Positions 1,811 to 56,878 of a stretch of 64,000 bases of DNA are shown here, piece by piece (positions within the stretch are counted from its first letter, which is position 1; every line of letters starts with the position of its first letter). The DNA comes from Chiloscyllium plagiosum. Taxonomy: Eukaryota. The DNA lies in contig NC_057755.1 in the NCBI RefSeq assembly GCF_004010195.1, positions 11,996,438-12,060,437 of the forward strand. The letters run 5' to 3'. Below the pieces are notes generated by a model, which was not told the DNA's origin, made no database searches, and worked only from the letters and a program-made list of their open reading frames with translations. A program made the translations under genes and the position numbers.

Positions 1811-3170
1811 TTTGGTTAAGGAGAATCCAAAGAGATTCTACAAATACATAAAAGGTCAAAAGGTGTGGTGCTGGAAGAGCACAGCAGGTCAGGCAGCATC
1901 CGAGGAGCAGGAGAGTCAATGTTTCAGACATTAGACCCTCTTCATCAGGAAGGACTAATGCTCCTCGAATGGTGCCTGACCAGCTGTGCTTTTTCAGCAC
2001 CACACAAAGACTCTGACTCTCCAGCATCTATAGTCCTCACTTTTTCCTAAATACATGAAAGAATAACTAGAGAGAGAATCGGGCCCTGTGAAAATCAACA
2101 AGGCTATCGATGTATGGAATCGCAGGAGATGGGGGAGATACTCCACAGTAAATACTGATGTGAAATACTACTTGAGAAGGGTATGGAAGATTGAGAACTT
2201 GGAGAAATAAATAGTGATATCTTGAAAAGTGTCCATATTGCAGAGGAGGTGGTGCTGGACGTCTTAAAATGAATAAAAGTGGATAAATCTCTGGAATTCA
2301 ACCGGGTGTATCTCAGAATCTTATAGGAGGCAAGGGAAGTGTTGCTGAGATCAGTAGCCGTGAATGAGGTGCCGGAAAACTGGAGGATGGCTAATGTGGC
2401 GCCACTACTTAGGAATGGTCGTAAGGAAAAGCCAGTGAGCCTGATGTCGGTTATAGGTAAATTGTTGGAGGGGATTCTGCGAGACAGGATTTACATGTTT
2501 TGAAAAGGCAAGACCTGATTAGGGATGGTCAGCATGGTTTTGTGTGGGAAATCATGTCACACTAACTTGATTAAGTTTTTTTGAGGAAGTGACAAAGAAG
2601 ATTGAAGGCAAAGGATGTTTATATAGACTTCAGCAAGGCATTCCACAAAGTTCTGCATGATAGACTAGTTAGCAAGGTAAGGTCACATGGAATGCAGGGA
2701 GAGTTAGCCATGTGGATGCAAAATTGGCTTGAAGGTAGAGGACAAAGGGTAATGGTAGAGGATTGTTTTTCATACTGGAGGCCTGTGACCATTTGTATGC
2801 CACAAGGATCAGTGCTGGTTCCACTGCTTTTTGTTGTTTATACATATTATTTGTATATGTATATAGGAGGTATGGTTAGTAAGTTTGCAGATGACACTGA
2901 AATTGTTGGTGTAACCAGTGAAGAAGGTTCCCTCAGAATACAAGGGGTCCTCGATCAGTTGGCCTAATGAGCTGAGGGGTCGTGACGTGGAAGAGTCTGT
3001 GTTGGACTGGGTGGACAAAGTTAAAAATCAGGAGAAAGTGAGGACTGCAGACGCTGGAAAAATTGCAGCGCTCGGAAAGCTAGTGCTTCCAAATAAATCT
3101 GTTGGACTATAACCTGATGCTGAGGAGCGGCAGATGGAGTTCAGTTTAGATAAATGTAAAGGGCTAAATT
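1810..3170 (+). mobile_element. CR1-like LINE fragment interrupted by short Penelope pLTR relics (~1860-2048, ~3000-3118)
   Basis: DFSKAFHKV, PQGSVL and KFADDT motifs; the inserts match the gctggaaaagcacagcaggtcaggcagcatc and cgctcggaaagctagtgcttcc repeats seen elsewhere in the window. Confidence 0.8.
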
Positions 3171-3292
3171 TATATTGTGTTTTTTTTATTAAGGTTCATT
3201 GGAACACAACCAAGGAGTTGTAGGAGAACTGCCCATGCTGCTTTTCAATTTAACCCCATGTTAATCCATCAGCAAAGCCGCTTTCGAACTCA

Positions 3293-3431
3293 GTTAAAAA
3301 TCACACGATACCAAGTCCAACAGGTTTAACTGGAAGCATTAGCTTTCGGGGCGCTGCTCCTTCATCTGCTGCGGATCGTGTGATTTTTAACTTTGTACAG
3401 CCTTGTCCAACACTGGCATCTCCAAATCGTG
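3293..3431 (-). mobile_element. Penelope-type pLTR relic with hammerhead motif in the KIFBP proximal promoter
   Basis: Flanked by gctttcgaactcagtt (3280-3295) and gctttcaaactcagtt (3432-3447). The minus strand reads cagatga aggagcagcgcccc gaaagcta. Same family as 43365-43452. Confidence 0.7.
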
Positions 3432-5995: not shown

Positions 5996-6945
5996 GGCAG
6001 AGTCAGTGGGCCAATGGTAAGTATTTGTTGATAATCCATCACTGAGTTTTGCGGTGCAGTAGTTGTGTCTCTGCCTCTGAACTAGACAGCCTGGTTTCAA
6101 GTTCTCCCTGGTTCGGAGATGTGTAATAACATTTCTAAATGTGTTGATTAGAAATTCTCCTGAAATGGAGAAGTCTTGGAAATGGTCTGAAGTGTCAAAT
6201 AATAAAGTTAAGTAGGTGGAAGTGGGAAGGAATGTTGATTAAATTTTCCAATTCAGGCAAGGGTCAAAAAATGGCACATGTCAATCATCAGTATACAGGA
6301 AAAAGAGATGAGAGAGAGGCTTGAGTAGGATTGGAGCAAGGAATGTTGTACATCTTTCTCTGAAAGGCAGCATAGCTAGAACCCATGCAGATTCACTCAG
6401 CAACGCATTTTATTGGAAAAAGTGAATAGAGTCACAAGGGAGGTTGTTCAACATGATAACAAGCTCTGTCAGGCAGAGAAAGTCATTGGATGGGACTGAT
6501 TAGGCCTCTGTCGAGGAAATAGCCCAGAGCCCTCATTTGTGGTGGGGGTTGAGGCGCAGACTGACTGGGTGATCAAGTTATAGAGAAAACAGGGCTACAA
6601 AATAAGAAATAAAGTGGCAGAGGAAACTGAAACAATCATGGATGTAATTGGTGATTGGGCAAGAGAGAAAAAATAAAACAAAGACAGGTGAAATCAGTGG
6701 AATGAGACAGAAACAGACTGAATCAGTGTGCCTCTCAAAGCAATCCTGTTGGTGAATCTTGAGAAACAAACAGAAGCAAGCTGTTCAGGAGTGGGAGATC
6801 ATGAGAGTAAAACACGTAGATACTGAAGATCTGAAACAAAAACTGAAATTGCTGGAGAAAATCAGGTCTGGCAGTAACTGTGGAGCGAAGGCAGAGTTAA
6901 TATTTTGAGTCTTCAGAACAGTAACTGTACTGAATACCGTCACTA

Positions 6946-9262: not shown

Positions 9263-9524
9263 GAAACAAAAATGGAAGTTGCTGGAAAAGGTCAGCAGGT
9301 CTGGTAGCATCTGTGAAGAGAAATCAAACTTAACGTTTTTGGTCCAGTGACCCTTCCTCAGAACTGGACTCGATGGGCTGAATAGTCTGCTTCCCCACTG
9401 TAGGGATTATGATTCAATCTTGGTCTTTTCTGCAAATTTGTTGAACATTTCCTCCCACGTTTCCATCTGTATAATTTATGCATATAACAAACAATAAGGG
9501 TCCCTGTACAAACCCTTGTGGTAC

Positions 9525-14086: not shown

Positions 14087-14166
14087 ATTGGAACTCCACC
14101 ATTGGACACCCATGAACACTTCCTGGAAGAAGAGGAGAGGTTGAGTGAGCAGGAGAGACATAAAAG
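14087..14166 (+). CDS. KIFBP: KIFBP coding exon 3 (80 nt; not in the ORF track)
   Basis: Acceptor atcatttag|ATT; translates IGTPPLDTHEHFLEEEERLSEQERHK(R), matching the KBP GxPPLD..FL.EEE.L.EQER segment; donor AG|gtatgg; phase 0/2. Confidence 0.93.
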
Positions 14167-14939
14167 GTATGGTGGTCTTTAACCTGTCAGAGATCAAATG
14201 GGAAGTTTGTCTGTAAACAACTGAGGCCATCTGAAGAAGTACGAGTATTGGTAGCTCTGAAATTACAAAGCAATTTTGTGTCTGAGCTCTCAGTAGTACA
14301 GATGAAACTGAATTTCAGCCAGCCATCAGGTTTTTCTGCTAATTTTGTTGAGGTAATCTGAATTTTTTGAGGAGATAACACAAGTGGTAAATAAAGAAAT
14401 GTGTGCGGGTATTGTTGACATGGACTTCTACAAAACATTTGATACATTTCTATTCAAAAGAAATGATTAATAAAAATGGCCAAATGTTTACTGGAAGATC
14501 AACTGTTAGGGAGGAGTTGCGTTAATTTGATGGGAAAGGAACCTGAAAATAGCAGCAATGTCCTGCAGGATGCTGAAGATCTGAAATAAAAACAAGTAAT
14601 GCTATAGAAACTCATCAGGTCTGGCAGCCATCTGTGGAGAGAGAACCAGAGCTAATGTTTTAAGTCCAGTATGACTTCACAAGATGCTATCATCAAAAAT
14701 GAGTAATTCTGGACTAGAAACGTCAATCCTTTCTTTCCGCAAGTGCTACAGGATATGGATGACTTTCTTGAGTACTTTCTGTTTTATTTCAGGAAATAGC
14801 AGCACTGAGATCAAAAGAAAGAGATATAAAGCAGCATTAAAGTTAAAAATGTCTCAAAATTGCAGGCTAGAGCTAAGGGAAGTAGAAGTGGTGCTACCGG
14901 TATTAATTTGGATTTTTTTAGAAAAAATGTTGGAATCAA

Positions 14940-15396: not shown

Positions 15397-16324
15397 CTAA
15401 TTATTAAAGGAGTAATAGCACATTTGAAAAATCATAAACAAATCAAGCAGAGTCAAAATGAAAGGGACCTCTTGCATGACTAACATATTAGAGTTTTTCA
15501 AGGAAATTTCAACCAGAGTAGATGGTGGAACCAGTGGATGTGTTGTATTTATCCTTCCAGAAAGCATTTGACGAGGTATCTTCGAAAAGGTTAAGTCATA
15601 AGTTAGGAGCTTGTTGTGTTGGAGGTAAGTGGCTGTGAGAAATATCAGTGTTGAGACTGAGGTACTGGAAAAGCACAGCAGGTCAGGCCGCATCCGAGAA
15701 GCAGGAGAATCGCCGTTTCTGGCAAGAGCCCATCATCAGGAAATCTGTTTCAGGAAGGACACTGAAAGTGCTGTGACACTGTTCTAGGAGGGGTCTTCTA
15801 ATTTGCTCAGGGAAAAGAGCAAATGACTAGAAGTGAGGCAGGTAAAGGGACCCAAGAGGCAGCATTGCAGGAGCATTAGCTCTTAGAATTGTCAGCAAGT
15901 TTGAGGTACTTCAAATCTCTTAGAGAAGAGTGTGAACTGCATGGGTAAATGAACTACCTGACCAGAATACTGCATCCAGGAAACCATTCAAGTGAGGGGA
16001 GTAAATAGAATTGCAGTGGTAGTATAAGTCTGTGTACTGAAGGGGATAGCTATGTTTTTCTCTAGCTGATGGCTGTGTTGCCTGCCAGGATTTTGGATAC
16101 CTGCAGTGGGCTGGAGAGGAACCTGCTGTAGGACAAAGCAGTGATTGTGGTACATATAGGTACCACCAATATGGATCGGAATAAGATGTACTGCTGAGGG
16201 AATATAAGCAGTTAGGGGCTAAAGTAAGAAACAAAACTTATAAGGCATAATAATCTATGGATTACTACTTGAGCCACAAGCAAATTGGTGCTGAATGAGA
16301 TTTGAGAGATGAATGCATGGCTTA

Positions 16325-17710: not shown

Positions 17711-18684
17711 GAACCGTGTTGGGACCAATGTGCTGGCAAATCATATAACTATGGCATGAGACAGGGTTTTAAACTAAATAGTGGGGTGGAAGAGAGTGAT
17801 AGGCAATATTTTAAAAGTAATGAAGCAACATTATATAGGGGCAGCATTTTGAGTATTGATTTCCAAAGACGAGAGTGTGATGCTGGAAAAGCACAGCAAG
17901 GTCAGGCAGCATCCAAGGAGCAGGAGGATCGATGTTTCGGGCATAAGCCCTTTATCGGGAAAGCCTTCCAGCACCACATTCTCCATTCTGATCGCCAGCA
18001 TCTGCAGTCCTCACTTTCTCCTAATGATTTCCAAAGTACGCCAGGATGGGTCAGGACATATGTGCGTACATACAAACAAGAATATGTCAACAGGTAAGGC
18101 CAGATTTTGTCAAAATTATAAATAAAATGGGAGGCCTTGTATATTATAATACAGACAGCATTGTTAGCATAGATAGAGAGAAATATGTACGATCTGACAA
18201 ACATCACAGATATTTGGTTGAAATGTCACCAAGGGAGGACCAGGACAATAATAGGATACCTTTGTAAATTAGGGATGTTAATGCAGTGCTGAAAGATGAC
18301 AGGTTCAAAAGAGCAAGCATCAGTTTGGATAGAGGTAAGAAATAGTAAAGGTAATTTGTCACCTGTGGTTGTAGTTTCTAGACTCCTTAATAGTTCCACT
18401 GTAGAAGAGAATAAGCAGAAAGAAAGAAATGGGACATGCAAAAAATATATTGCGATTATCATGGGTGATTTTAGTCTACACGTAGATTGGGATAATCAGA
18501 TTGGCAACAATAGCCTGGAAAGTAAGTTGGGTGTTTTGTAGGTGATTTCTTAGAGCAAAGCATTCTAGAGTGAACCAGGGAGGACACTTTCCTAGTCTTG
18601 GTCAGAAGCAATGTGACAGGATTAATCAATAACTTCTTGGTAAAGGAGTCTCTAAGGGACGCGAATCACAAAACGATAGAATTA

Positions 18685-20605
18685 GTTAAAAATCACAGAA
18701 CACCAGGTTATAGTCCAACAGGATTATTTAGAAGCACTAGCTTTTGGAACACTGCTAATTCATCAGGTATTTGTGGAGCAGGATCATAAGACACAGAATT
18801 TATAGCAATAGATCACAATGTCATGCATGCAACTGATTGTTAAGTCTTTCAACTTGTAGAATGGGTTGCTGATTTCGGTTCATTAAAAGTAAATCCCAGA
18901 ACTTCTTTCAAATCGCATTCTTGAGATAACTTAAAGTTTTATTTTTAAAAAGTGACTTCTCAACTCAAGAGAATGCATTAAAGGTGTGACGTTAGAGTCT
19001 GTCTGTCTATCCCAATCTTGAATCAAACTGGTTCTGTTTCCAAAATAGGAATTTATAAAAAATGTTACATGGATTGACTGCCTGCAGATTGTGTGCTTTT
19101 TGAGCAAAATAGAATTTTTTTGCAATTCCAGTTCTGCAAATGCAAATTAACCCCATAAATTTATGTGAGTGTGTGTATGTGATAGTATGTGTTTGCGTGA
19201 ATGCACCTTTCGGGGGGGTGTATATGTGTGTGTGTGTCTGAGAGAGAGCATGTATGTGAGAAAGGGTCTGCGTGAGTATATAAGTGTGTATGTGTGAGAG
19301 TGTATAGTGTAGTGGGGTCACCTGTAGTGTGACATGAACCCAAGGTCCCGGTTGAGGCCGTCCTCATGGGTACTGAATTTGCCTATCAACCTCCGTTCAG
19401 TCACTCTGCGTTGTTGCGTATCCAGAACTCCACTTTGGAGGATGGTCACCTGAAGATCCGAGGTCGAATGTCCCTGATCACTGCAGTGTTCCCCAACTGG
19501 GAAGGAACCTCCCTGCCTGGCGATTGTTGCATTGTGTCCGTTCATCCATTGTCATAGTGTCTGCTTGGTCTCGCCAGTGTACCATGCCTTGGGACATTCT
19601 TGTTTGAGCCGTAAGAGATAGACAACATCGGCTGAATCACATGAGTACCTGCTGTGTACATGGTGGGTAGTGTCCCCCGTGTAATGGTAGTATCCATGTT
19701 GACACTCTGACACACAGTGGTTGCCCTGACAGGGTTGTGTGATGTTGTGGTCGATGTTGTCTTGAAGGCTAAGCAGTTTGCTTTGAACAGTGGTCTATTT
19801 AAGGTTTGGTGGTTGTTTATAGGTGAGGAGTAGAGGCATAAGGAAGGTCTTGGCGAAGTGCTCATCCTCTTCGATAATGTGTCCCAGGCTGCAAAGAATA
19901 TGGCATAGTTTCTCCGCTCCCAGGAAGTACTGAACAACAAAGGGTACCCTATCGGTCACATCCCGTATCTGTCTCCTGAGGACGTAATTATGGTTTCTCA
20001 CTGTGGCACATTGGAACCGGCGATCAATGGATTGAGCATCATATCCTGTTCTTATGGGGTGTCTTTCTGGATCTTCAGGTGTCCGTTGCGTTCCTCCTCC
20101 TCTGAACAGATCCAGTGTATGCGTAGGGCTTGTCTGCACGGGATGGCTGTTTTAATATGTTTAAGGTGGAAGCTAGAGAAGTGCAGCATTGGAAGTTACC
20201 TGTGCATTTGGGGTAGAGTGTGGGACTGAGGTGCCTTTACTTGATGGAGATGTGTGTGTCCAAAAATGAGACAGATACTAAAGAGTAATCCATGGTAAGT
20301 CTGATAGTGGGATGAAACTTGTTGATATCATTGTACAGTTGTTTCAGTGACTCCTCACCATGGGTCCAGAGGAAGAAAATGTCGTCAATATATCTGGTAT
20401 ATGGTGCTGGTCAGAGGTCCTGTGCAGCAAAGCCGTCTTGCTCAAACTTGTGCACAAAAATATTGGTATATTTGGTGCAAATTTAGTCTCCTTGGCTGTT
20501 CCGTGTGTCTGGATGAAAAACTAGTTGTCAAAAGTGAAAACGTTGTGGTCGAGGATGAAGCGGATGAGTTGTAGAATGGTGCTCTGAGATTGGCAGTTGG
20601 TGGTT
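18685..20605 (-). mobile_element. Penelope-like element (RT C-terminal part, GIY-YIG region, pLTR), decayed; includes a (TG)n tract at ~19160-19310
   Basis: The minus strand gives ILQLIRFILDHNVFTFDN, RVPFVVQYF.GAEKL and MNGH...VGEH...LGFMSHY. The pLTR at 18685-18770 carries a degenerate hammerhead. Confidence 0.8.
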
Positions 20606-22149
20606 TTGAGTAATGAGGAATAATAGGGGATAGAAATCAGGAGTGGGAGTGGTCCACAGCCCCCTATGACTAAGTTTGATCCATATATGGCGTTATTTTC
20701 CAATGTGGAGAGTCTGATTTAGGTACTCATACAAGGTACTCATCAGCCTTCACCTAGAATTCCATGAAGAGCTCTGAGCTTGACAGGCTAGGTATGGAGG
20801 GTTGTTTCTCTTTGTGACACAGTCCAGCACCATTTGGAATAATCTCAGTGTGAGAGGTTGCCCATTTAAGATGGATGAAGAAGAATTTCGTCTGCCAGAG
20901 GTAGTAAGACTGGAATTCATTATTGCAGATGACTATTGAGACTGGGTCTTTCAATATATTCAAAGTGAAGACAGACAAAATTTTTAATCAGTAAGAGAAT
21001 AGAGGGTTATAGGGAAGAGGCAAAAAAGTAACATGAGGAATATCACATCAGTCATGATCTTGGGCTCAGCTTGATAAGTGCGAACTTCTGCTCCAATATC
21101 TTATGATTTTAGGTAATGAGAATGCCTGTCCTCTTGAGTGAAAATGGGGAGTTAATCATAGATACTAAGGAATTGTATAAAGTGAATATATTTTGCTTTG
21201 AATGCAAAAGAAAATCCACTAATATTGGTGAAAAAAGATACATTTTATTGAGGCTTTTCATCTTGCAGTCATCAGGACAGTTAACAGGCAATGCAACAAA
21301 AACAGAAATTGCTGGAAAAGCTTAGCAAGTCTGGCAGCATCTGTGGAGAGAAATCAATTAATGTTTTGGGTCCAGTGATTCTTTCTTAGAACTTCTGTCA
21401 AAGGGAAAAGCCACGTTTGTACGAGGAGAGTGCATATTGGTTAGCAGGTAATTGGTAGAGGTGTTGCCATGGAGAATACACCATTTATTGATGACTCACA
21501 GCTAACTGCTACTCTTTCTATAAATTTTATACCAGGCAGTTTGATTGTCAATGCCCTGACAAATTACCCAAGAATGGCTGTCATTTATGTTGTTCAGTTG
21601 AAACAGGCACAATGTGTATACATGTTCTTTGTTTCTAACAATGCTCAACTTCTATACTACAAAATGACAATTTGTATTCCAGCAATAGCTGTGAACCAAG
21701 AGATGGATAGGAGAGAGGAATTTGATAAAATAATATTCACTAGGACAGCGGTACTGAGAAAATTGCTGGAACTGCAGCTTTAAGTGTCTGGGTCCTGCCT
21801 TAGAATCTTAAAAGTGTTAGCTATTTTTTGTCTTAATTTTCCAAAATTTGCTAGATTCTTGAAAGGTTCCATTAGAGTGGCAAGTAACAAATATTGAAGA
21901 AAGGAGAAAGGCAGAAAATACAGGCCGGTTAGCATGACCCCTGTCATAGGGTAAGTGTTGAAGGTGATTATTAAGAAATTTATAGCTGGCCACCTAGAAA
22001 ACCCTAAGATAGTTTAGAGGAGTCAGCTGCTTACCTGCTAAATTGTAACTAGTTTTGAAGGGCTTTTGCCGGAAAGGTCGATTCTCCTGCCCCTCGGTTG
22101 CTGACTGACCTGCTGTGCTTTTCCAGCACCGCACTCTCGATTCTAATCT

Positions 22150-22460
22150 CCAGCATCTGACAACACATTTATCCTCGGACAAGTCAAACAGAGATATGCA
22201 CGAGAATTCCTCGAAGCATGGCATTCCAACCGCAACTCTATCAACAAACACATTAAGTTGGATCCAGTTTACCAACCTCCTGGGAAAAATAACAGGAAAT
22301 AATATCACCACAGGAAATGATATAATCAACCCAAGGAAACCTAAACACAAATAAAAAGCGGGCCAAACCACCAGTGCTTCACCGGAGGCTCACTGATGAT
22401 GTGTGGCGACGAAATGTCTGAAATCGAACCTTCCAGCTCAGCAACAAAATTTACATCTAT
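22150..22460 (+). mobile_element. Penelope-like 3' end/pLTR (second family) with hammerhead at 22390-22421
   Basis: gca cga gaa ttc ctc gaa gca tgg cat tcc (AREFLEAWHS, GIY-YIG C-terminal part), then tca-ctgatga-...-gac-gaaa-tgtc-tga. Confidence 0.75.
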
Positions 22461-22795: not shown

Positions 22796-23075
22796 CAAAC
22801 TAACTAGGAATTCTAACAAGGAATTCCTGATGAAGAGCTCATGCTTGAAACATCGACTCACCCGCTCCTTGGATGCTGCCTGACTGGCTGTGCTTTTGCA
22901 GCACCACACTTTTCGACTCTGATCTCCAGCTTCTGCAGTCCTCACTTTTTCCAAAATTAACATGAAGCAAATATGAGTAACAGACAAATGAAGGCACAGT
23001 TTCAGTTAAATAGCAATGGGATCAAACAGATCCCACAATTTCCCAGTAATCTACTCCCAACATCAGTGACACTAT

Positions 23076-24441: not shown

Positions 24442-24693
24442 TCAAAGTTTGTGAGAAGATTTGTAGCTCAGGTGCTCGTTGTTGTGGTTCTGTTCGCCGA
24501 GCTGGGAATTTGCGTTGTAGACGTCTAGTCCCCTGTCTAGGTGACATCCTCAGTGCTTGGGAGCCTCTTGTGAAGCTGGAGGAAAGATCACAGAAGCGCT
24601 TCACAGGAGGCTCCCAAGCACTGAGGATGTCACCTAGACAAGGGACGAAACGTTTGCAACACAAATTCCCAGCTCGGCGAACAGAACCACAAC
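24442..24693. mobile_element. Non-autonomous Penelope pLTR pair in inverted orientation
   Basis: ~97-bp inverted arms (~24481-24577 and ~24598-24693); perfect 15-bp flanking duplication aagcagccctaaaat (24427-24441, 24694-24708). Confidence 0.85.
24618..24657 (+). ncRNA. Minimal type I hammerhead ribozyme motif
   Basis: GCA CUGAGGA U GUC...GAC GAAAC GUU UGC: intact core, stem I GCA/UGC, stem II closed by G-C, palindromic ACGU stem III. Confidence 0.75.
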
Positions 24694-25109
24694 AAGCAGC
24701 CCTAAAATGTACAACTACCTGGCAATCAATCACCTAGTTGTTCACAAGCAGAAGGCCTTTCTCATCAATAACTGTACATTAGCCCACAGCCCAGTCAGTT
24801 ACTTTTTGCCAGTTTGTACTCAGCCCTTGACTAATTTGTCTGCGAATTATCTCCTCCTGCTTGAACCAGCACCTGTATAAACATTGCAATGAGTATCAGA
24901 TTACTTGCTCTCAAAATTGCAATGATGTTTCAACAATCCTTTGTTTCTGAACCAGTTCTTTTCTATTTCATTCCACAATCAAAAATACAGAAAAAAAAAC
25001 TAAGCGTGGTCTTTACATTTGGGGCAATGCTCCCCTGGATTCTTGGAAATTGCACTCCGGTATTTCCTTAGGCACAACTCCGATTTTCCACAAATTGACA
25101 ACTTCACCA

Positions 25110-32590: not shown

Positions 32591-32679
32591 ACCTATCATA
32601 ATCTGATCAGACAGCCAACATGGCTTATGTTTAATTTATCTTTTACTTTTTTGGTACAATAATATTCACTAGGGGATAG

Positions 32680-34745: not shown

Positions 34746-35448
34746 CTCAGCTAGAGGTGGATTGTGTCAAACAGCATACCCTTTTGCCTGTTTGCAATAA
34801 ACAAGGTACTAAACAGCAATCGCCCTGCGCTTCTAAAACTCAACACAATGTATAAAATTAGATATGATTTAATTGATAGGCAGCATTTGCGAAATAATCT
34901 TGCATTTGTCAGTCAAGCTAACAGTGTAGTACACTTGTGTGTACTGAAAACATCATGTATTAATACACAGGTTCCTGTATTTTGCAGTCAGAAAAAAATG
35001 TACAAAACCTATGTCTGTTTCAACTCAACAAAATTGACGATAGCCACTTACTGATTCATTGTCAGGTCAATGTCCTGACCAATCAGATTCACCCAGCCTT
35101 GCTTAAAACTTAAAGCCAAGCAGTTAAGTGTCAGTCAGATCTAGTGCATTATTGCATCACCTTTACTAATTGGTATCTACTTCCCAACCAAACAGCACCC
35201 TTCTCATACGTAATAAATATTATTTTACCTTTGCATCAGTATTTTAATGTATTTTCCTGATGTCTGACATTTAAAAAGCTTTGACAAATGTCTTTTTCAT
35301 CAGTACTCAATTTCTACAAAATCAGTACTACAAAATTACTGCTACCTTCCTTTGTGGTAAGGTATGACTCAAATCAGAGATTTTCCCTAATTGCGTTTAT
35401 GTATTGCCTGAAAAGTCTTATGAATTTCAATATGTTTGGTTTGTATAG

Positions 35449-35632
35449 GTTTGAGAAGGTTTACACTCATACTTTGTATTACCTGGCACAAGTCTACAAG
35501 CATCTGGATATGAATGAGAAGGCTGCCTGGTACTGCCATACTACCCTGCAACGCCAGCTTCAGTTCACTCATTACAACCCTGTGGAGTGGGCTATCAATG
35601 CTGCTACTTTGTCCCAGTATTATATCACAAAG
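35449..35632 (+). CDS. KIFBP: KIFBP coding exon 4 (184 nt)
   Basis: Acceptor ttgtatag|G; translates (R)FEKVYTHTLYYLAQVYKHLDMNEKAAWYCHTTLQRQL...EWAINAATLSQYYITK; donor AAG|gtaagt; phase 2/0. Confidence 0.96.
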
Positions 35633-39234: not shown

Positions 39235-42120
39235 GAGGATTTCAGCAAGGCTTTTGACATGGTCCCACACAAAACCATGGAATCCTATAGCATGGAAGCA
39301 GGCCATCTGGCCCATCCTATCCACACCGACCCTCCAAAGAGAATCCCACCAAGTCCCATCTGACACCCTGACCTTAAACCTGCATTTCCAATGGAAAATC
39401 CATCTGATCTACACATACCTGGACATTATGGGTAATTTAGCATGGCCCAACTAACATAGGAAACTGATGAAAATGGTGAAAACATATGGGATCCAGGGTA
39501 AGTTGGCAAGTTGGATCCAAACTTGACTTAGTGACAGGAGACAGAGGGTGATGGAACAAGACTTTGTGTGACTGGAGCTTGGTGTGCAGTGACATAATAC
39601 AGGAATCCGTTCTGAGTCTCTTATTGTATGTGATATTCATAAGTGATGTGGATGAGAATGTGGGGAGGACGATAAGTTTGTGGAAGACACAAAAATAGTG
39701 GTTGATAGCGAAGAGGAAGGTTTTAAGTTATAAGAGGATATAAAGAAATTGGTCAGATTGGGCAAATCAGTGACTGATGGAATTTAACACTAATAAGTGT
39801 GAGGGGATGAGTTTTGGAAAAAGTAACAAGACAGGGGAGTATTCGTGAATGATAGGAAGCTTAGAGAAAAAGGAGAGGGGATCTTGGTCTACTTGCCCAC
39901 AAATACCTCAAGGTGGTTAATAGGGTAGAACATAGAACATTACAGCGCAGTACAGGCACTTTGGTCCTCATTGTTGGTTCCACAGGTTGGAGCAATCTGA
40001 TGCCCATCTATCCTACTCTATTCCATTTTCATCCATATGCCTGTCCAATGACCATTTAAATGCACTTAATGTTGGCGAGTTGCAGGCAGTGCGGTCCACG
40101 TCCCTACTACTCTGAGTAAAGAAACTACCTCTGACATCTGTCCTATACCTGTCACCTCTCAATTTAAAACTATGTTCTCTCGTGCTAACCATCACTATTA
40201 GCGGCTCTCACTGTTCACCCTGTCTAACCCTCTGATTATCTTATATGTCTCACTTAAGTCACCTCTCAGCCACCTTCTCTCTAATGAAAACAGCTTCAAG
40301 TCCCTCAGCCTTCACTCATAAGACCTTCCCTCCATACCAGTCAACATCCTAGTAAACCTCCTCTGAATCTTCTCCAAAGCTACTCATCTTTCCTATAATG
40401 CGGTGACCAGAATTGTATGCAATACTGCAATGCAGCTACACCAGAGTTTTGTACAGCTGCAGCATGATCTCGTAGCTCTGAAACTCAATCCCTCTATCAT
40501 ATGTCGTCTTGACAACCCTATCCGCTTGACTGGCAACTTTCAGGGAACTATGTACATGGACACCGAGATCTCTCTGCTCATCTAGACGACCAAGAACCTT
40601 ACCATCAGCCCAGTATTCTCTATCCTTGTTGCACCTTCCAAACTGAATCACCTCACACATTTCCGCATTAAACTCCATTTGCCACCTGCAGCTTATCTAT
40701 GTTTTTTTGTAAGCTGCAACATCCTTCAGTACTATCCACAACTCCACCGACCTTAGTGTCATCCGCAAATTTACTAACTCATCCTTCTACGCCCTCATCC
40801 AGGTCATTTATAAAAATGACAAACAGCAGTGGCCCCAAAAAGGGTGGTTAAGCATATAACTGAGTGTTCAGGACTGGCATGTTCCAATAAAAAGGAAGGA
40901 CAAGAACAGCAAGGTAAGGGAACCTTGGATGACGAGGGACTATGTAAATTTAGTCGAAAGGAAAAAAGTAGCGTATGTAAGGTTTAGGAAGCTAAAATCG
41001 GACAGTACCTGTGAGGAATATAAAGAAAGGATATAACTCGAACAGGGAATTAGAACAGCAAGAAGGGGCCATGGCAAGTGGGGTTAAAGAGAATCCTAAG
41101 GCATTCTATACATACATTTCAAAAGAAGAGGATAACTAGGGAGAAGAGCAGGATCACTCACGGATAAAGAAGGGAGCTTTTGCTTGGAGGCAGACAATGT
41201 GGGTGAGTTCCTAAATGATTACTTTGCGTCGGTATTCACACAGGAGAAGGATGCAGAGGATAGTGAGATTTGTGTGGAGCATGCTAATATGCTTGGGCTT
41301 TTTGAGACCAAGAAAGTAGTAATATTGGGTCTCTTGAAGAGCGTTAAGGTGAATAAATCCCCAGGACTCAATGGGATCTACCCCAGGTTATTGAGGGAGA
41401 GAAAAGAGGAGATTGCTGGGGCTTTGACCAAGATCTTTGCATCTTCGCTAGCCACTTGAGAGGCCCTAGAGGACTGGCGAGCAGCTAATGTTAAAAACTG
41501 AATGAACTATGGATGCTGTAAACCAGAAACAAAAACAAATTGCTGGAAAAACTCAGCAGGTCTGGCAGCATTTGTTAAAGCAAAGATTGAGAGCCTAGAT
41601 GTTATGTTAGTGCTGTACGGAACCTTGGTTATGCTGTAGCTGGAGTACTGTGTGAAATTCTGGTCACCGCACTGTAAAGATGTGGTTGCATTGGAAAGAG
41701 TGAACAGGAGATTCCCTAGGATGTTGCCTGACATGGAGCATTTCAGCGATGAAGAAAGGCTGGATAAGCTTGGGTTGTTTTCCTTGAAACAGAGAAAGTT
41801 GAAGGGTAGTAGCGTTATCACGTATAAAACTTTGAGGGACAGGTGGAAAGGAAACAGTTGTTCCCCTTACCCTGAGGGTCACTAACAAGGGGACAAATGT
41901 TCAAGGTGAAAAGCAGGAAATTTAGAGAGATTTGACAAATAGTTTTTTTTCACCCAGAGGGTGGTGGGGTCTGGAATACCCTGAGACAATAGTTGAAGTC
42001 TTTTTTAAAAAAAAATGTGGATTAGTAGTTGAGATTTCATTACATTCAAGGCAATGGAACCAGTGTTGGAAAGCAGGACCAGTGTAGGTTTAGCATGGTT
42101 TTGGTGATGCACGCTCAATC
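39235..42120. mobile_element. Cluster of nested CR1-like fragments (plus 39235-39925, minus 39926-40840, plus 40860-42120)
   Basis: RT and C-terminal CR1 motifs in the ORF track on both strands. Confidence 0.8.
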
Positions 42121-43364: not shown

Positions 43365-43452
43365 TCCACAACCACCTGATGAAGGAGCAGCGCTCGGAAA
43401 GCTAGTGCTTCCAGTAAACATTTGGACTATAACCTTGTGTTGTGATTTTTAA
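43365..43452 (+). mobile_element. Penelope pLTR relic (third family) with hammerhead motif at 43373-43407
   Basis: CAC CUGAUGA A GGAGC-AGC-GCUCG GAAA GC UA GUG. Confidence 0.72.
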
Positions 43453-43507
43453 CCTTGCAGGTTGGAGTCATTGAGAAACACTAAACATGTCATTTATCTG
43501 CACATAG

Positions 43508-46445: not shown

Positions 46446-47780
46446 GTAGAAACAAAATACTGCAGAAACATTGGCTTGCTGTCTCTCCATAGATACCATT
46501 GGGCCTTGGGGACTAAGATTAAGGGATGTTTTTCTTGATTGGAAACCTATGACCAGCGGTGTAGCACAGAATTTGATGCTGAAACCCTTGCAGTTTGCTA
46601 TGTACATTAATGACTTCAATGTTAAGATAGCAGATATAATTAGTAAGTTGGCAATTGACACAAAAATTGGTGGCTCTGGTTGTGTTGATACAGATGAGGT
46701 TGGTCTCAGACTACAGTTTGATATTGATCAGCTGATAAACTAAGCAGAACAGTAACAGGTGGAATTTTAACCCTGACAAGCATGAGGTGATACATTTTGG
46801 GAAGTCTAGTAGAGAAGGATTTACTCAGTGAATGAAGGACCCCAGGGAATACTGGGGAGCAAAGGGACCTTGCTGTACAAGCGCATAGATCCCTGAAGTG
46901 TCAGTATGCGTAGACAGGGTAATGAAGAAGACATACAGTATGGATTCTGAGTAATCCAAGATGGAGGATGGAAAAAAATTGTGGCTGTAAGAGCTGCTTT
47001 TTTTTTGAGGTATTTTAGGTGTTGGAGGTGACTTCCTTGAATTTCAGGAGCAGCAATTACTTTTCGAAATGCTGTTGCATTGTTTTCGAACTTTGGGGGG
47101 AAAATAGATGACAGCAATTTAAAAAGGATGAAGACAGACAAAGGCAGCGACCACATATTCAGAAAAAGAAACCTACACTGCTGTTTGACACAGCAGTGAA
47201 TCTGCACAGTAATTGCTTTTGCTGTTTGAGTTCAAATATCTCTGGGCATCAGAGCGCTTCTAGGAAAAATTAACAAACAGCGAAATTCACAGCTAACCTT
47301 GGAGGAACCTGTGTGGGAAAGCTCACAGCACATGACCGGGTAAGTACATAGCTTTTAAGTGTAACCTTCCTGTAAACCTATGATAGTGAGAAGAGTGGGT
47401 TCTTTCTTGATGAGATCTGTCTCTTAGTTAAATTTTAAAAATATAAACCATAAGTGCAAAGTTAGCCTGGAGCAGTGTTTTAGAGTACATTTTGGGGATT
47501 TTGTATCATCTGTGAATTGTGAAGGAGCGAAGAAGGCCTTTTGGAAAATGATGTGGTCTTCCTGTCGGATGTGGGAGTTTAGGGAGAGGTTCCATGTCAC
47601 TGATGATTATGTCTGCAGGAAGTGTCTTTGTTTGCAAGTCCTGTCAGATCATATGGATTGGTTGGAGCGACAGTTGGAGGCAATAAGGAATTTAAAGGAG
47701 CTGGGGGTACTGAATGTAAGTTTGTTCACTGAGCTGGAAGGTGCGTTTTCGGACATTTTGTCACCATACTAGGTAACATT

Positions 47781-49811
47781 CACCATCAAGCCAGCAGATA
47801 AAGGGGGTGCAATGGTAGTTTGGCGCACTGACCTCTACACCGCTGAAGCCAGACACCAACTCGAAGACACCTCCTACCGCCCCCTCGAGAATGACCCCAC
47901 CCCCCATTACCAAACCATTATCTCCCAGACCATAGAGAACCTCATCACCTCAGGAGATCTCCCACCCACAGCTTCCAACCTCATAATCCGGGAACCCCGC
48001 ACCGCCCCATTCTATCTCCTTCCCAAGATCCACAAGCCTGACCACTCTGGCCGACCCATTGTCTCAGCATGCTCCTGCCCCACTGAACTCATCTCCACCT
48101 ACCTCGACACTGTTCTATCCCCCCCAGTCCAGGAGCTCCCCACATACATTCGAGGCACCACCCACACCCTCCACCTCCTCCAAGACTTCCGTTTCCCCGG
48201 CCCCCAAAGCATCATCTTCACCATGGATATCCAATCCCTCTACACCTCCATCCTCCATGACCAGGGCCTCCAAGCCCTCTGTTTTTTCCTCTCCCGACGT
48301 CCACAACAGTACACTTCCACTGACACTCATTCATTTGGCTGAACTGGTCCTCACCCTTAACAATTTTTCATTCGAATCCTCCCACTTCCTCCAGACCAAA
48401 GGGGTAGCCATGGGCACCTGTATGGGCCCCAGCTATGCCTGTCTGTTTGTTGGCTACGTAGAACAGTCCATCTTTGGTAATTATACCGGCACCATTCCCC
48501 ACCTCTTCCTCTGCTACATTGATGACTGCATCGGCGCCACCTCGTGCTCCCACGAGGAGGTTGAGCAATTCATCAACTTCACCAACACATTCCACCTGAA
48601 CCATCTCTGCCACCTCCCTCCCTATCCTGGATCTCTCCATCTCCATTAATGACGACTGACTTGACACTGACATTTTTTACAAACCCAACGACTCCCACAG
48701 CTATCTGGATTACATCTCTTCCCACCCTACCTCCTGCAAAAATGCTATCCCGTATTTCCAATTCCACCGCCTCTGCCGTATCTGCTTCCAGGAGGACCAG
48801 TTCCACCACAGAACACACCAGATGGCCTCCTTCTTTAGAGACTGCAATTTCCCTTCCCACGTGGTTAAAGGTGCCCTCCAACACATCTCGTCCACACCCC
48901 GCACCTCTGCCCTCAAACCCCACTCCTCCATCTGTAACAAGGACAGAACCCCTCTGGTGCTAACCTTCTACCCTACCAACCACATCATCCGCCGTCATTT
49001 CTGCCACCTACAAACAGACCCCACCACCAGGGATATATTTCCCTCCTCACCCCTTTCCGCTTTCTGCAAAGACTGTTCCCTCCGTGACCACCTGGTCAGG
49101 TCCACGCCCCCCAACAACCCACCCTCCCGTCCTGGCATCTTCCCCTGCCACCGCAGGAATTGCAAAACCTGCGCCCACACCTCCTCCTTCACCTCCATCC
49201 AAGGCCCCAAAGGAGCCTTCCACATCCATCAAAGTTTTACCTGCACATCCNNNNNNNNNNNNNNNNNNNNNNNNNNNNNNNNNNNNNNNNNNNNNNNNNN
49301 NNNNNNNNNNNNNNNNNNNNNNNNNNNNNNNNNNNNNNNNNNNNNNNNNNNNNNNNNNNNNNNNNNNNNNNNNNNNNNNNNNNNNNNNNNNNNNNNNNNN
49401 NNNNNNNNNNNNNNNNNNNNNNNNNNNNNNNNNNNNNNNNNNNNNNNNNNNNNNNNNNNNNNNNNNNNNNNNNNNNNNNNNNNNNNNNNNNNNNNNNNNN
49501 NNNNNNNNNNNNNNNNNNNNNNNNNNNNNNNNNNNNNNNNNNNNNNNNNNNNNNNNNNNNNNNNNNNNNNNNNNNNNNNNNNNNNNNNNNNNNNNNNNNN
49601 NNNNNNNNNNNNNNNNNNNNNNNNNNNNNNNNNNNNNNNNNNNNNNNNNNNNNNNNNNNNNNNNNNNNNNNNNNNNNTGTATTCCTGATGAAGGTCTTGT
49701 GCCCGAAACGCAATTTTCCTGTTCCTTGGATGCTGCCTGACCAGCTGTGCCTTTCCAGCACCACTCTAATCCAGACTCAGGTTTCCAGCATCTGCAATCT
49801 TCATTCTTACC
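47781..49811 (+). mobile_element. Penelope-like element (first family), 5'-truncated, spanning the assembly gap
   Basis: IKPADKGGA, FYLLPKIHKP...GRPIVS, MDIQSLYT, KGVAMGT.MGPSYA, YIDD and PCHRRNCKTC motifs; pLTR with hammerhead-like motif at 49680-49712. Confidence 0.9.
49251..49677. other. Assembly gap (427 N)
   Basis: Run of N characters. Confidence 1.
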
Positions 49812-49817
49812 AACATT

Positions 49818-50665
49818 ATCAGTGAGCCTCCGGTGAAGCACTGGTGTTAGTGACACGCTTTCTATTTGTGTTTACGTTTTCTTGGTTGGTGATGTCATTT
49901 CCTATGGTGTTGTAATTTCCTGTTCTTTTTCTCAGAGGAGGTTAGATCGGATTCAAATCGATGTGTTTGTTGCTAGCGTTCCCGTTGTCACTTTCAATAA
50001 CACAACCTATAGACAAACCAATGAAACGCTCATGGGACCTCCGATATCAGGGTTCTTAGCAGAGGCAGTAATGCAGAGACTCGAACAAACAACTCTGCCA
50101 ACCATTCAACCCTAACTTAGGGTCCACTACATGGCTGACACCTTCGTCATCACTAAACTAAACAATTATAATGAAGCCTTTAAGACCATCAATATCCTTA
50201 CTGGCATAAAATTCACAAGATGAAAACCACAACAAACTGCCATTCCTGAATGTCACAGGAGAGCGAACAGCCAGCGTCTGCAGGAAAACAACACATACGA
50301 AACTGCAGAAGCAATCATCCTAACACCCTCAAACAAAGCTGCATTAGAGCATTATTTCAGTGAGTCACCAGACACTGCAGCACAGAGGAACTACGAAGAG
50401 CAGAGGAAACCCACCTATACAGCGATTTCAAAAAGAACAGGTACCCAATGAACACAGTCTGCCCACTTCTCAGCAACAAACCCAAACAAACAGATAAAAC
50501 TTGTCCAGAAACCCTAGTCAGTCTCCCCTACTTCAAAGACATCTTGGAAATGACTGCCAGACTACACAGACCACTTGGCATCATGGTAGGCCACAAACCC
50601 ACCAACACATTAAAACAGTAGCTAATGAACTTGAAAGACTCTATACAGACAGCAAGCAAAACCAA
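49818..50665 (+). mobile_element. Penelope-like element (second family): inverted pLTR (47712-47780 plus 49818-~49975) followed by a plus-strand RT fragment
   Basis: FNNTTYRQ...MGPPISGFLAEAVMQRLE motif; the inverted part matches the reverse complement of ~22230-22460. Confidence 0.8.
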
Positions 50666-54858: not shown

Positions 54859-56543
54859 AGTCTATAAAGGTAGTAGAAGTATACTTAAGAGGGGATTGAT
54901 GAGGTCAGAACAATGGACATGATCCATATGGACTTCACTAAAGCATTCAACAAGATAGACTGTTTGCAAGCTTAGATCTCGTGGCGTACAGGGAGAACTA
55001 TCCATTTGCATACAGAACTAGTTCCAAGATAGAAGACAGCTGTGGTAGAGGGTTGCCTTTCAGATTGGAGGCCTGTGACCATTGGTGTGACACAAGGATC
55101 GGTGCTGGGTCCACTGCTTTTCATCATTTATATAAATGATTTGGATGTGAACATAGAAGGTATAATTAGTACGTTTGCAGATGACACCAACTTTGGAGGT
55201 GGAGTGGACAACAAAGAAGGTTACTTCAGAGTGCAATGGGATCTTGATCAGATGGGCCAATGGGCTAAGGACTGGCTTATGTGGTTTAATTTAGATAAAT
55301 GTGAGGTGCTACATTTTGGAAAGGCAAATCAGAAGAGGACTTAGACATTTATTGGTAAGGTCCTGGGGAGTGTTGCTGAACAAAGAGACCTTGGAGTGCA
55401 GTTCCTTGCGAATGGAGTCTCAGGCAGGTAGGATAGTGAAGAAGGCGTGTGGTATGCTTTCCTTTATTGGTCAGAGCATTGAGTATAGGAGTTAGGAGGT
55501 CATGTTCTAGCTGTATAGGACATTGGTTAGGCCACTTTTCTGAGCAGTTCTGGTCTCCCTCCTCCTGGAAAGATGTTGTGAAACTTGAAAGGGTTAAGAA
55601 AAGCCTTACAAGGATGTTGCCAGGATTGGAGGGCTTGAGCTATAAGGAGAGGCTGAATAGGCTAGAGCTGTTTTCCCTGGACTGTCTGAGGCTGAGGGAT
55701 GACCTTATGGAGGTTTATAGAATCATGAAGGGCATGAATAGGTTAAATAGACACAGTCTTTTCCCTGGGGTGGGGGAGTCCAGAGCTAGACGGCATAAGT
55801 TCAGGGTGAAGAGGAGAAAGATGTAAAAGGGACCTCATGGGCAACTTTTTCATGCAGAGGGTGGTACATGTATGGAATGAGCTGCCAGAGGAAGTGGTGG
55901 AGGCTGGTACAATTACAACTTTTAAAAGACATCTAGATTGGTAGATGAATAGGAAGGGTTTACAGGGGTATGGGCCAAGTGCTGGCAAATGGGACTAGAT
56001 TAGGTTAGGCTATCTGGTCAGCATGGATGAGCTGGACCGAAGGGTCTGTTACCATGTTTAAAACAGCAGGGGGTTGGAATATGGGAGCAGGGAAGTCTTG
56101 CTGAAACTTCATAGAGCATTGTTTAGGCCACAGATAGAATACTTTGTACAGTTCTAGTCACCACACTGTCAAAGGATCGCAATTGTACCAGAGAGGCTAC
56201 TGAGGAGATTAATTAGGATATTTCCTGAAAGTCTGAGTTATAAGGAAAGACTGGATAAGCCAGGTTTGTTTTCCTTGGAGCAGAGGAGGCTGAGGTGGCT
56301 CTATGACCATGACATTGAGGCCCACCACCATGTTGCTCTTCTGTACGCTCCAGTCTCCCATTGCTGATGTTTCTAGGTTGCATCAGGTCAGGCTGTAGTT
56401 GAGAGAGTATCAGGCCTGCTCCTTTGAACAAAAATAAACTATATCTGGGAAATGGTGCCACAAATCCTAGTTGTTGTCAACGTGACCATTCTCACATTGT
56501 CAGTCCCTTGACAGAGATCAGCTGACTCAGCACACATCTGAGT

Positions 56544-56878
56544 AGGTAAAAACAATGACTGCAGATGCTGGAAACCAGAGTCTAGATTAGTTCCAAACTT
56601 CCAGCTCAGCACTGTCCCCATGACTTGTCCTACCTGCCTGTCTTCTTTTCCACCTATCCACTCCACCCTCCCCTGACCTATCACCTTCGTCCCCTCCCCA
56701 CTCACCTATTGTACTCTATGCTACTTTCTCCCCACCCCCACCCTCCTCTCACTTATCTCTCCACCCTTCAGGCTCTCTGCCTGTGTTCCTGCTGAAGGGC
56801 TTTTGTCCGAAACGTCGATTTTACTGCTCGTCGGATGCTGTCTGAACTGCTGTGCTTTTCCAACACCACTCTAATCTA
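56544..56878 (+). mobile_element. Solo Penelope pLTR with a short inverted 5' piece
   Basis: 20-bp flanking duplication gactcagcacacatctgagt (56524-56543, 56879-56898); hammerhead-like ctgctga-agggcttttgtcc-gaaacgtc at ~56789-56817. Confidence 0.82.

What the first reader, a model, noticed from the sequence alone, without database searches (positions are those of the whole stretch)
1860..56878. About a dozen minimal hammerhead ribozyme motifs from three Penelope families scattered through KIFBP
Seen in sequence: three repeat families each carry CUGA(U/G)GA, one extra nt, a short hairpin, GAAA, a 2-nt palindromic stem III, UH and a short stem I. Family 1 (uc CUGAUGA a gggc-loop-gccc GAAAC RUC ga) occurs on + at ~22824, ~34616, ~49681, ~56787 and on - at ~1917, ~15713, ~17928, ~32770. 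Family 2 (ca CUGAKGA u gu..gac GAAA YG UY ug) occurs at 22390, 24618, ~24518 (minus) and split across 47750/49818. Family 3 (cac CUGAUGA a ggagc-agc-gcuc GAAA GC UA gug) occurs at 43373, ~3338 (minus) and ~18735 (minus). The stems differ between families while the core is kept. Established: Penelope-like elements carry minimal type I hammerheads in their pLTRs, thought to cleave as dimers. Inference: this genome hosts several hammerhead-bearing Penelope and retrozyme-like families, and the sense copies are transcribed in KIFBP pre-mRNA. Most copies carry core mutations.
Basis: partly seen in the sequence, partly recalled or inferred. Interest (0 to 1): 0.72.

Follow-up and report, generated by a model that had tools for sequence, protein, structure and literature searches.

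The report
Shark Penelope relics with minimal hammerheads
The self-cutting-RNA motifs are real, but they are the broken end-pieces of three ordinary Penelope-like jumping-gene groups that litter this genome at the same density everywhere, so they likely do nothing to the KIFBP gene they happen to sit in.

Summary
All 15 listed motifs are at the stated places and the window holds 27 such pieces; a strict descriptor finds 2 against 0.02 in shuffles. Each family lies 3' of a Penelope-type RT/GIY-YIG frame: families 1 and 3 have the Neptune/Nematis zinc-finger linker, family 2 is Poseidon-like. Across 16 subfamily consensuses 141 of 160 helix cells pair, with compensatory changes and a C3-G8 to U3-A8 core swap. 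This is the published minimal hammerhead of Penelope pLTRs (PMC4209133).

No retrozyme arrays are present. KIFBP is not special: 27 pieces against a median of 22 in 120 control stretches (P 0.24), 10 sense against 12 antisense, and no copy is fully intact. The best sense copy (24621) is predicted to be locked in a hairpin with its inverted twin. Spliced KIFBP contigs exist.

The genome holds roughly 2×10^5 intact motifs. Copy 5' ends pile up just before the motif (73 of 220), not at the cut site (9 of 220), which likely marks the transcript start. The scan noted this before on other DNA (1054 notes match the words).

The parts
1863..2047 (.). Family 1 head-to-head pair: hammerhead plus tail on minus (1863-1952, C3 1948), tail-only piece on plus (1958-2047); upstream of KIFBP
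3065..3122 (+). Family 3 piece lacking the 5' half of the hammerhead, joined to a family 1 tail end
3279..3430 (.). Family 3 head-to-head pair; hammerhead on minus (C3 3368, U4 changed to A); ends about 140 nt before the KIFBP start codon
3572..3925 (+). KIFBP first coding exon
   Evidence: match to human KIF-binding protein 6zpg_A; splice donor read from sequence
6833..6921 (-).
9263..9366 (-).
14087..14165 (+). KIFBP internal exon, spliced to 35447 in transcript-like contigs
14583..14785 (.). Family 1b degraded head-to-head pair
15642..15742 (-). Family 1 hammerhead plus tail (C3 15739, U16.1 changed)
17864..18021 (.). Family 1 head-to-head pair (C3 17958 minus, core broken)
18682..21000 (-). 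Family 3 Penelope-like element: broken RT, linker and GIY-YIG frames, CA-rich 3' region, pLTR with hammerhead (C3 18766, G12 changed to A); the 5' limit is the edge of what was translated
21293..21393 (-). Family 1b degraded hammerhead plus tail
22056..22160 (+). Family 1 piece starting inside the core
22159..22460 (+). Family 2b (Poseidon-like) 3' end: GIY-YIG C-terminus, pLTR and hammerhead (C3 22393, stem II partly deleted)
22823..22951 (+). Family 1 hammerhead plus tail (C3 22827; core intact, G10.1-U11.1, palindrome lost)
24449..24705 (.). Family 2a head-to-head pair: C3 24553 minus (G12 changed to U) and C3 24621 plus (most intact sense copy); predicted to fold into one long hairpin
27362..28078 (-). 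Family 1 element fragment: linker, GIY-YIG, tail; hammerhead deleted
32673..33569 (-). Family 1 element fragment: RT pieces and pLTR with broken hammerhead (C3 32798)
33605..34744 (+). Family 1 element fragment: RT piece, GIY-YIG (33920-34450), pLTR with hammerhead (C3 34620; core intact, palindrome lost by CpG decay) and tail
35447..35632 (+). KIFBP internal exon, spliced at both ends in contigs of two runs
41526..41578 (-). Family 1b tail-only piece
43370..43480 (+). Family 3 hammerhead plus tail (C3 43376; core intact, C11.1 changed to G)
47706..47780 (-). 3' half of the split family 2b hammerhead (stem II onward, G12 changed to A) with left target duplication
47773..49815 (+). Family 1 element: RT frames, linker, assembly gap 49251-49677, hammerhead (C3 49685, U16.1 lost) and tail; inserted into the family 2b hammerhead
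49812..49987 (-). 5' half of the split family 2b pLTR and hammerhead (C3 49822, G8 changed to A) with right target duplication
56589..56883 (+). Family 1 pLTR with hammerhead (C3 56789, A6 changed to C)
57215..58093 (+). KIFBP last coding exon
   Evidence: Pfam KBP_C E 6.9e-107; 6zpg_A residues 331-619

Best explanation
These motifs are minimal type I hammerheads in the end repeats (pLTRs) of three groups of Penelope-like retroelements, left in and beside KIFBP as truncated, mutated copies that likely no longer cut RNA. Shown: each family's motif follows an RT/GIY-YIG frame; a near-full-length family 1 element elsewhere carries the motif in both pLTRs 2.9 kb apart; copies share a fixed 3' tail, have ragged 5' ends, and half have a head-to-head inverted partner. 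Inferred: the element's protein nicks DNA and starts reverse transcription inside the tail, as shown in vitro for the Anolis Poseidon element. The copy then runs back through the uncut hammerhead and often stops at the RNA's 5' end, a few bases before the core, so most insertions are 100-150 nt stubs that carry the motif. Inferred: the ribozyme is under selection only in the active master elements, where it would cut as a dimer or with the element's protein; once inserted, copies decay. For KIFBP the sense copies are passengers removed with the introns.
For: Linkage to RT/GIY-YIG in the window and in genome loci. Both pLTRs in L257 at 2122 and 5017. Fixed 3' and ragged 5' ends in 90 loci. 210 of 423 control pieces have a head-to-head partner. 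Covariation: 141 of 160 cells paired against 101.6 in shuffles, 0 of 10,000 reaching it (subfamilies are related, so this is not a probability). Within subfamilies, copies are hit at invariant core bases at 5.5% against 7.1% in the tail (family 1 group), 3.0% against 5.5% (family 3), 1.9% against 3.2% (family 2), and at 10-21% at the core CpG base. Density: 27 pieces against a median of 22, P 0.24. Orientation 10 sense to 12 antisense, P 0.83. No fully intact motif in the window. 5' ends: 73 of 220 family 1 and 22 of 82 family 3 ends fall at -8 to 0 from C3, against 9 of 220 and 1 of 82 at the cut site. The upstream DNA of these copies is unrelated host DNA or the inverted twin. A TATA-like word sits at -37 to -35 (family 1) and -40 to -38 (family 3). 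Literature: PMC4209133, PMC11167929, PMC8557442.
Against: No cleavage assay was possible. The core is a little better kept than the tail even within subfamilies; unresolved subfamilies explain this, but slight selection on inserted copies is not excluded. The window has 0 fully intact motifs where 3.15 are expected (Poisson P 0.04, not corrected for clumping; P 0.14 with the relaxed descriptor), a weak hint that intact copies are avoided in genes. 43 of the 73 piled-up ends are inversion junctions, where microhomology or a stall at the folded motif could also set the end. The extra G expected from copying a cap was not seen: 3 of 20 non-inverted ends. In family 2 the TATA word is at -53 and only 13 control copies were scored, with no pile-up. 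The transcript start itself was not mapped. Clade names rest on the linker motif, not on a tree.
Confidence: 0.88

Rival explanations
1. The short pieces are independent non-autonomous retrozymes that spread through circular RNAs made by hammerhead cleavage.
For: Many pieces are only hammerhead plus tail. Retrozymes derive from pLTRs and were found in the one chondrichthyan sampled (10.64898/2026.07.22.740005). 30 same-strand, same-family pairs within 600 nt occur among 423 control pieces.
Against: No tandem array of motif-bearing units in the window. 5' ends grade continuously into coding sequence. Ends do not start at the cut site, where a cleaved unit would start (9 of 220, no excess, P 0.75). 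Only 1 close same-strand pair of fully intact motifs among 57.
Confidence: 0.05
2. Some sense copies cut KIFBP pre-mRNA, alone, as cross-family dimers or with a Penelope protein, and so tune KIFBP output.
For: 10 sense pieces are in introns, and 5 of them keep every core base (22393, 22827, 24621, 34620, 43376). The decayed helix III strands of 22393 and 22827, 434 nt apart, happen to be complementary to each other (read). The related Anolis ribozyme cuts when its protein is added (PMC11167929).
Against: Each of the five has a stem II, G10.1-C11.1 or palindrome defect. 24621 is predicted to be buried in a -196.5 kcal/mol hairpin with 24553. Density and orientation are at background. Single minimal motifs showed no cleavage and dimers little in PMC4209133; 8 of 9 natural Xenopus dimers did not cleave (bioRxiv 2026). 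Contigs join exon 14165 to 35447 and 35632 to 42935 in two runs, though splicing can survive an intron cut (own knowledge).
Confidence: 0.04
3. Same elements, but the 5'-end pile-up records a stall or template switch of the reverse transcriptase at the folded hammerhead, not the transcript start.
For: 43 of 73 piled-up family 1 ends and 16 of 22 family 3 ends are inversion junctions. The peak is at -4/-3, the edge of helix I, in both families although the TATA-like words differ in spacing. No extra G (3 of 20).
Against: A copying enzyme coming from the 3' side would be expected to stall at the 3' foot of the structure, near the cut site, where no excess is seen (inference). 30 non-inverted copies also end at -8 to 0. 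A TATA-like word is kept at the same spacing in family 1 subfamilies whose intervening sequence differs.
Confidence: 0.3

Closest known systems
Minimal hammerheads (min-HHR) in pLTRs of metazoan Penelope-like elements (Cervera and De la Pena 2014, PMC4209133; parts 1-2 of 4 read, supplement file 2 searched, file 1 not searchable)
   Same: Type I topology, an extra base between 9 and 10.1, G10.1-C11.1, palindromic 15.2-16.2, short helix I, many consensus families with compensatory changes, mostly single truncated copies, opposite-strand pairs, and a U3-A8 core variant (reported there for Schistosoma).
   Different: No shark is named in the parts read or in the searched supplement. The estimate here is 1.7-2.6×10^5 intact motifs against about 4,000 (coelacanth) and 9,000 (Xenopus tropicalis) there, with different descriptors. 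Helix II is shorter here (4-5 bp in families 1 and 3).
PAc, the Poseidon element of Anolis carolinensis (Frangieh et al. 2024, PMC11167929; passages read)
   Same: Family 2a has an ATG at the start of stem II with the predicted cut 28 nt after it (26 in PAc), an AC-rich tail with two preferred 3' ends, and no zinc-finger linker.
   Different: In family 2a the GIY-YIG frame of the upstream unit also ends inside the stem II loop, so the motif overlaps both the end and the likely start of the frame. Nothing was tested biochemically here.
Neptune/Nematis-type endonuclease-positive PLEs (Craig et al. 2021, PMC8557442; passages read)
   Same: [quoted passage not shown]
   Different: Neptune was not separated from Nematis by a tree; Neptune is the likelier name because the 2026 preprint found only Neptune and Poseidon in vertebrates.
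Non-LTR retrozymes (bioRxiv 10.64898/2026.07.22.740005; parts 1 and 3 of 5 and passages read, supplements closed)
   Same: Type I hammerhead in pLTR-derived sequence without a coding frame in most pieces.
   Different: No tandem arrays with a motif in each unit; pieces are dispersed stubs and inverted pairs that grade into coding elements.

Membership tests
Metazoan PLE minimal hammerhead | Core CUGANGA, GAAA, UH in type I order | tested here: met
   15 of 16 subfamily consensuses have C3-G8 and one has U3-A8; one old group's majority shows G12 decayed to A at its CpG
Metazoan PLE minimal hammerhead | Extra base before 10.1, G10.1-C11.1 pair, palindromic 15.2-16.2 | tested here: met
   Extra A or U in 16 of 16; 10.1-11.1 is G-C in 14 and G-U in 2; palindrome CG or GC in 12, CpG-decayed in 4
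Metazoan PLE minimal hammerhead | Helices I and II kept by compensatory change | tested here: met
   141 of 160 cells paired; three standard pair types at each of 2.1-1.1, 2.2-1.2 and 2.3-1.3
Metazoan PLE minimal hammerhead | Location in the pLTRs of a PLE | tested here: met
   3' of the GIY-YIG frame in all three families; both ends of L257
Metazoan PLE minimal hammerhead | Self-cleavage as a dimer or with protein | not testable with these tools
   Folding gives only -3 to -4.5 kcal/mol for the intermolecular helix III of palindromic copies and a penalty for 34620; no assay
Endonuclease-positive Penelope-like elements | RT followed by C-terminal GIY-YIG | tested here: met
   Pfam RVT_1 E 0.0015 and GIY-YIG E 0.00018 on fragments, both below Pfam's cut-off; motifs read in all three families; RT was read for families 1 and 3, only the thumb-to-GIY-YIG part for family 2
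Endonuclease-positive Penelope-like elements | pLTRs, 5' truncation, inverted 5' copy, tail | tested here: met
Neptune/Nematis clades (families 1 and 3) | CX2-5CxxC linker between RT and endonuclease | tested here: met
   Family 1 in window and loci; family 3 in L072 and L176, degraded in the window copy
Neptune/Nematis clades (families 1 and 3) | Placement in an RT tree with named references | not tested
   No named reference set was fetched
Penelope/Poseidon clade (family 2) | No zinc-finger linker before the GIY-YIG domain | tested here: met
   L041, L043, L057 translations
Non-LTR retrozymes | Tandem units, each with a complete hammerhead | tested here: not met
   None in the window; 1 close same-strand intact pair among 57 in 1.15 Mb. 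Arrays elsewhere in the genome are not excluded
Non-LTR retrozymes | Circular RNA form | not testable with these tools
   Contigs and 25 laid raw reads cannot show it
Rfam hammerhead families | Match to a curated covariance model | tested here: not met
   No hammerhead family among 5 matches at E up to 5

The most novel reading that the evidence does not exclude
This genome carries on the order of 10^6 hammerhead-bearing pLTR stubs and about 2×10^5 intact motifs, some 20-60 times the published vertebrate counts. Their ends are a fossil record of the Penelope copying cycle: a third of family 1 copies stop within 8 nt before the core and none in excess at the cut site, so the ribozyme would form the first 32 nt of the element's transcript and the uncut RNA would be the template. 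That would make the hammerhead a 5'-end switch on the element's own RNA rather than the unit-length cutter of the published model.
Probability: 0.45. Interest if true: 0.45.

Novelty: new member of a known kind. Interest (0 to 1): 0.2.

Why it matters
For KIFBP it most likely does not matter: the copies are background repeats. For retroelement biology, the role of the Penelope hammerhead is described as unclear (PMC8557442), and the one in vitro study found uncut RNA to be the dominant template (PMC11167929). A genome with about a million dated stubs, young subfamilies and natural core variants (U3-A8) gives a large in vivo record against which to test where the RNA starts and whether cleavage matters. 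Half of the pieces sit in head-to-head pairs, which would put many long RNA hairpins into shark pre-mRNAs, much like inverted Alu pairs (analogy from own knowledge).

Tried and rejected
Rfam scan at E up to 5: no hammerhead family; the two microRNA-like hits at 24542-24632 are the inverted family 2 pair and are below threshold.

Enrichment in KIFBP: rejected (27 against a median of 22, P 0.24). Strand bias in KIFBP introns: none.

Pile-up of copy ends at the cut site: not seen (9 of 220 and 1 of 82). Extra G before the 5' end: not seen (3 of 20). A first 5'-end map by all-against-all BLAST mis-anchored several copies and was replaced.

Three genome searches with tail-only queries, meant to give an unbiased set of young copies, returned no candidates although the queries come from this genome; the tool skips very common words, so the blanks show nothing.

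RNA: no listed holder is on record as RNA. On 34300-35900 one raw-read run laid 25 reads and another none, with no place where many molecules end; this is too thin and too multi-mapping to test cleavage. No reads were laid over the copies at 22-25 kb, so their in vivo state is untested.

Core against flank conservation within one family was rejected as a decisive test, because inserted copies decay; the comparison across subfamilies is the informative one. Dimer energies from ViennaRNA cannot model the hammerhead core and were not used as proof.

Literature: 'Penelope + hammerhead ribozyme' (36 papers, 25 listed), 'Penelope + shark + transposable elements + Chondrichthyes' (4), 'Penelope-like + pLTR + transcription start + truncated' (2 held, 1 listed). 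None of the listed titles or the passages read describes shark pLTR hammerheads or a 5'-end pile-up; most subscription papers and Repbase/Dfam entries were not searched.
Full report
Setting. The window is G000:C46:11996438-12060437 of a 3.56 Gb genome. That it is a shark or relative is my inference from recalled repeat content, not a tested result. KIFBP runs on the plus strand: first coding exon 3572-3925, exons at 14087-14165, 35447-35632 and from 42935, last exon 57215-58093. Two further exons expected from the human gene (recalled) were not located.

The observation. Profiles built from 30 genome loci for each main family, and from 2-3 window copies for two sister groups, find 27 pieces in the window. 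A strict descriptor (exact core, helix II of 4 or more pairs, helix I of 2 or more) finds 2 sites against a mean of 0.02 in 100 shuffles. In the first 575 kb of control DNA it finds 40 against 0 in each of 5 shuffles. Rfam reports no hammerhead. Nine of the 15 listed copies have a changed or lost core base. Of the other six, 1948 has a distorted stem II, 22393 a stem II deletion, 22827 a G10.1-U11.1 pair, 43376 a G10.1-G11.1 mismatch, 34620 has lost the palindrome by CpG decay, and 24621 differs from its family by one stem II mismatch.

What the families are. Each motif sits downstream of a Penelope-type frame. Family 1: RT and linker at 47773-49250 followed by the motif at 49685, and GIY-YIG at 33920-34450 followed by the motif at 34620. 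Locus L257 is a near-full-length, broken copy with the motif at both ends (2122 and 5017) and an inverted 5' copy. Family 3: RT, linker, GIY-YIG, a CA-rich 3' region and the motif on the minus strand from about 21000 to 18682. Family 2: a GIY-YIG C-terminus at 22159-22299 before the motif at 22393, and longer frames in genome loci. Families 1 and 3 have the CX2-5CxxC linker that PMC8557442 gives for Neptune and Nematis; family 2 lacks it, as Penelope/Poseidon does. In family 2a the endonuclease frame stops inside the stem II loop and an ATG opens stem II, 28 nt before the predicted cut, close to the 26 nt reported for Anolis PAc (PMC11167929). In 90 genome loci the 3' ends are fixed and the 5' ends ragged. 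In the control sample 210 of 423 pieces have a head-to-head partner. These are the published marks of truncated PLE insertions.

Is it a selected ribozyme? Clustering 542 copies gave 16 subfamily consensuses; copies in groups of fewer than 3 or far from any centre were left out. Anchored on the core, 141 of 160 helix cells pair, against 101.6 in shuffles, with 0 of 10,000 reaching 141. The subfamilies are related and some differ only by CpG state, so this is not a probability. The individual changes are more telling. Within the alignable family 1 group, 2.1-1.1 goes C-G to U-A, 2.2-1.2 U-A to C-G, 2.3-1.3 U-A to G-C, 10.2-11.2 G-C to A-U and 10.4-11.4 C-G to U-A. Within family 2, 2.3-1.3 is G-C, U-A or C-G. 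One subfamily of 6 copies swaps the core pair C3-G8 for U3-A8, a variant PMC4209133 reported in Schistosoma. So the fold was kept in the master elements. After insertion, copies are hit at non-CpG core bases at 1.9-5.5%, a little below the tail (3.2-7.1%), and at 10-21% at the core CpG base. That fits near-neutral decay with some unresolved subfamily structure; slight selection on copies is not excluded.

Is KIFBP special? No. In 120 control stretches of 10 kb at round coordinates on the large contigs (1,150,663 called bases; unplaced contigs not sampled) there are 423 pieces; a window of this size has a median of 22, and 27 or more in 24% of resamplings. Of the 22 pieces between the first and last coding exons, 10 are sense and 12 antisense (P 0.83); five more lie upstream of the start codon. 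The controls hold 87 strict and 57 fully intact motifs (palindrome and G10.1-C11.1 kept), which scales to about 2.6×10^5 and 1.7×10^5 in the genome, and 1.25×10^6 pieces in all. The window has 2 strict and 0 fully intact where 4.8 and 3.15 are expected (P 0.14 and 0.04), a weak hint of avoidance that clumping may explain. The best sense copy, 24621, is predicted to pair along its whole length with the inverted twin at 24553 in a -196.5 kcal/mol hairpin. Contigs from two runs, one guessed to be RNA and one of unrecorded kind, splice 14165 to 35447 and 35632 to 42935, across the intron that holds five of the sense pieces. Splicing does not exclude an intron cut (own knowledge), and the raw reads were too few to test one. 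A whale shark preprint already notes an expansion of Penelope-like elements in introns (10.1101/443036, passages read).

Retrozymes? Not here. No tandem repeat in the window overlaps a motif. In the controls 30 same-strand, same-family pairs lie within 600 nt, but only one pair of fully intact motifs lies within 1 kb on one strand. Arrays elsewhere in the genome are not excluded, and the 2026 preprint found some in its one chondrichthyan.

Where copies begin. Mapping each control copy to its closest long references, 73 of 220 family 1 ends and 22 of 82 family 3 ends fall between -8 and 0 from C3, peaking at -4/-3, while 9 of 220 and 1 of 82 fall at the cut site, which is no excess. The pile-up is not a missing-subfamily artefact: of 30 non-inverted family 1 copies, 2 have upstream DNA related to long copies and 0 to each other; 37 of 43 inverted ones have the reversed element upstream; and the peak holds in the youngest class, 41 of 128. 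A TATA-like word lies at -37 to -35 in family 1 and -40 to -38 in family 3, and -4 in family 1 fits an initiator-like word (recalled consensus). The likeliest reading is run-off at the 5' end of an uncut transcript, in line with the in vitro result that uncut RNA is the dominant PAc template (PMC11167929). Against it: more than half of these ends are inversion junctions, no extra G was seen (3 of 20), family 2 shows no pile-up in 13 copies, and no start was mapped. Earlier notes of this scan proposed the transcript-start reading; I tested the pile-up and the TATA-like word here and they hold, while the extra G and a cut-site cluster did not appear in this sample.

Verdict. A real, selected RNA motif of a published kind in new Neptune-like and Poseidon-like families. 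The copies in KIFBP are ordinary decayed insertions. What is left of interest is genome-wide (copy number and the 5'-end record), was noted before by this scan, and was not found in three literature searches that miss most subscription papers; one supplement file of PMC4209133 and the preprint supplements could not be seen and may name sharks.

Noticed in passing
window 44101-44430 +: A partial copy of the 5' part of the last KIFBP exon (93% over 44101-44275, 78% over 370 columns) without the splice acceptor, inside an intron of the same gene.
   Followed up: partly
L254:7848, L255:1781, L233:7016, L159:351 and 1594, L170:5590: A family 1b subfamily (6 copies) whose hammerhead core has U3-A8 in place of C3-G8, with helices I and II kept; not present in the window.
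   Followed up: partly
window 22393 and 22827 +: The helix III strands of these two sense copies, 434 nt apart, have decayed at the CpG on opposite strands and are now complementary to each other; both copies have other defects.
   Followed up: no
window 47706-49987: Nested insertion: a family 1 element landed inside a family 2b hammerhead with a 6-nt target duplication, so this family 1 copy is the younger.
   Followed up: yes
window 3279-3430: A family 3 inverted pair ends about 140 nt before the KIFBP start codon, at the edge of the GC-rich first-exon region; any effect on the promoter is untested.
   Followed up: no
window 9525-10480: A 34-nt minisatellite of 28 copies, with related 32-nt units at 8323-8492.
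   Followed up: no
L041:1559-2071 and window 24621-24655: In family 2a the hammerhead overlaps both the stop codon of the endonuclease frame (in the stem II loop) and an ATG at the start of stem II, so one stretch serves as ribozyme and as two coding ends.
   Followed up: partly
window 34624-34785: Summed contig depth over the family 1 hammerhead and tail is over 100 times that of the neighbouring KIFBP exon in two runs; this is family-wide multi-mapping, not a measure for this locus.
   Followed up: no
window-wide, e.g. 712-1746, 28412-29284, 54014-55826: Many fragments of CR1/L2-type LINE frames and several SINE-like repeats fill the introns (family names recalled, not tested).
   Followed up: no
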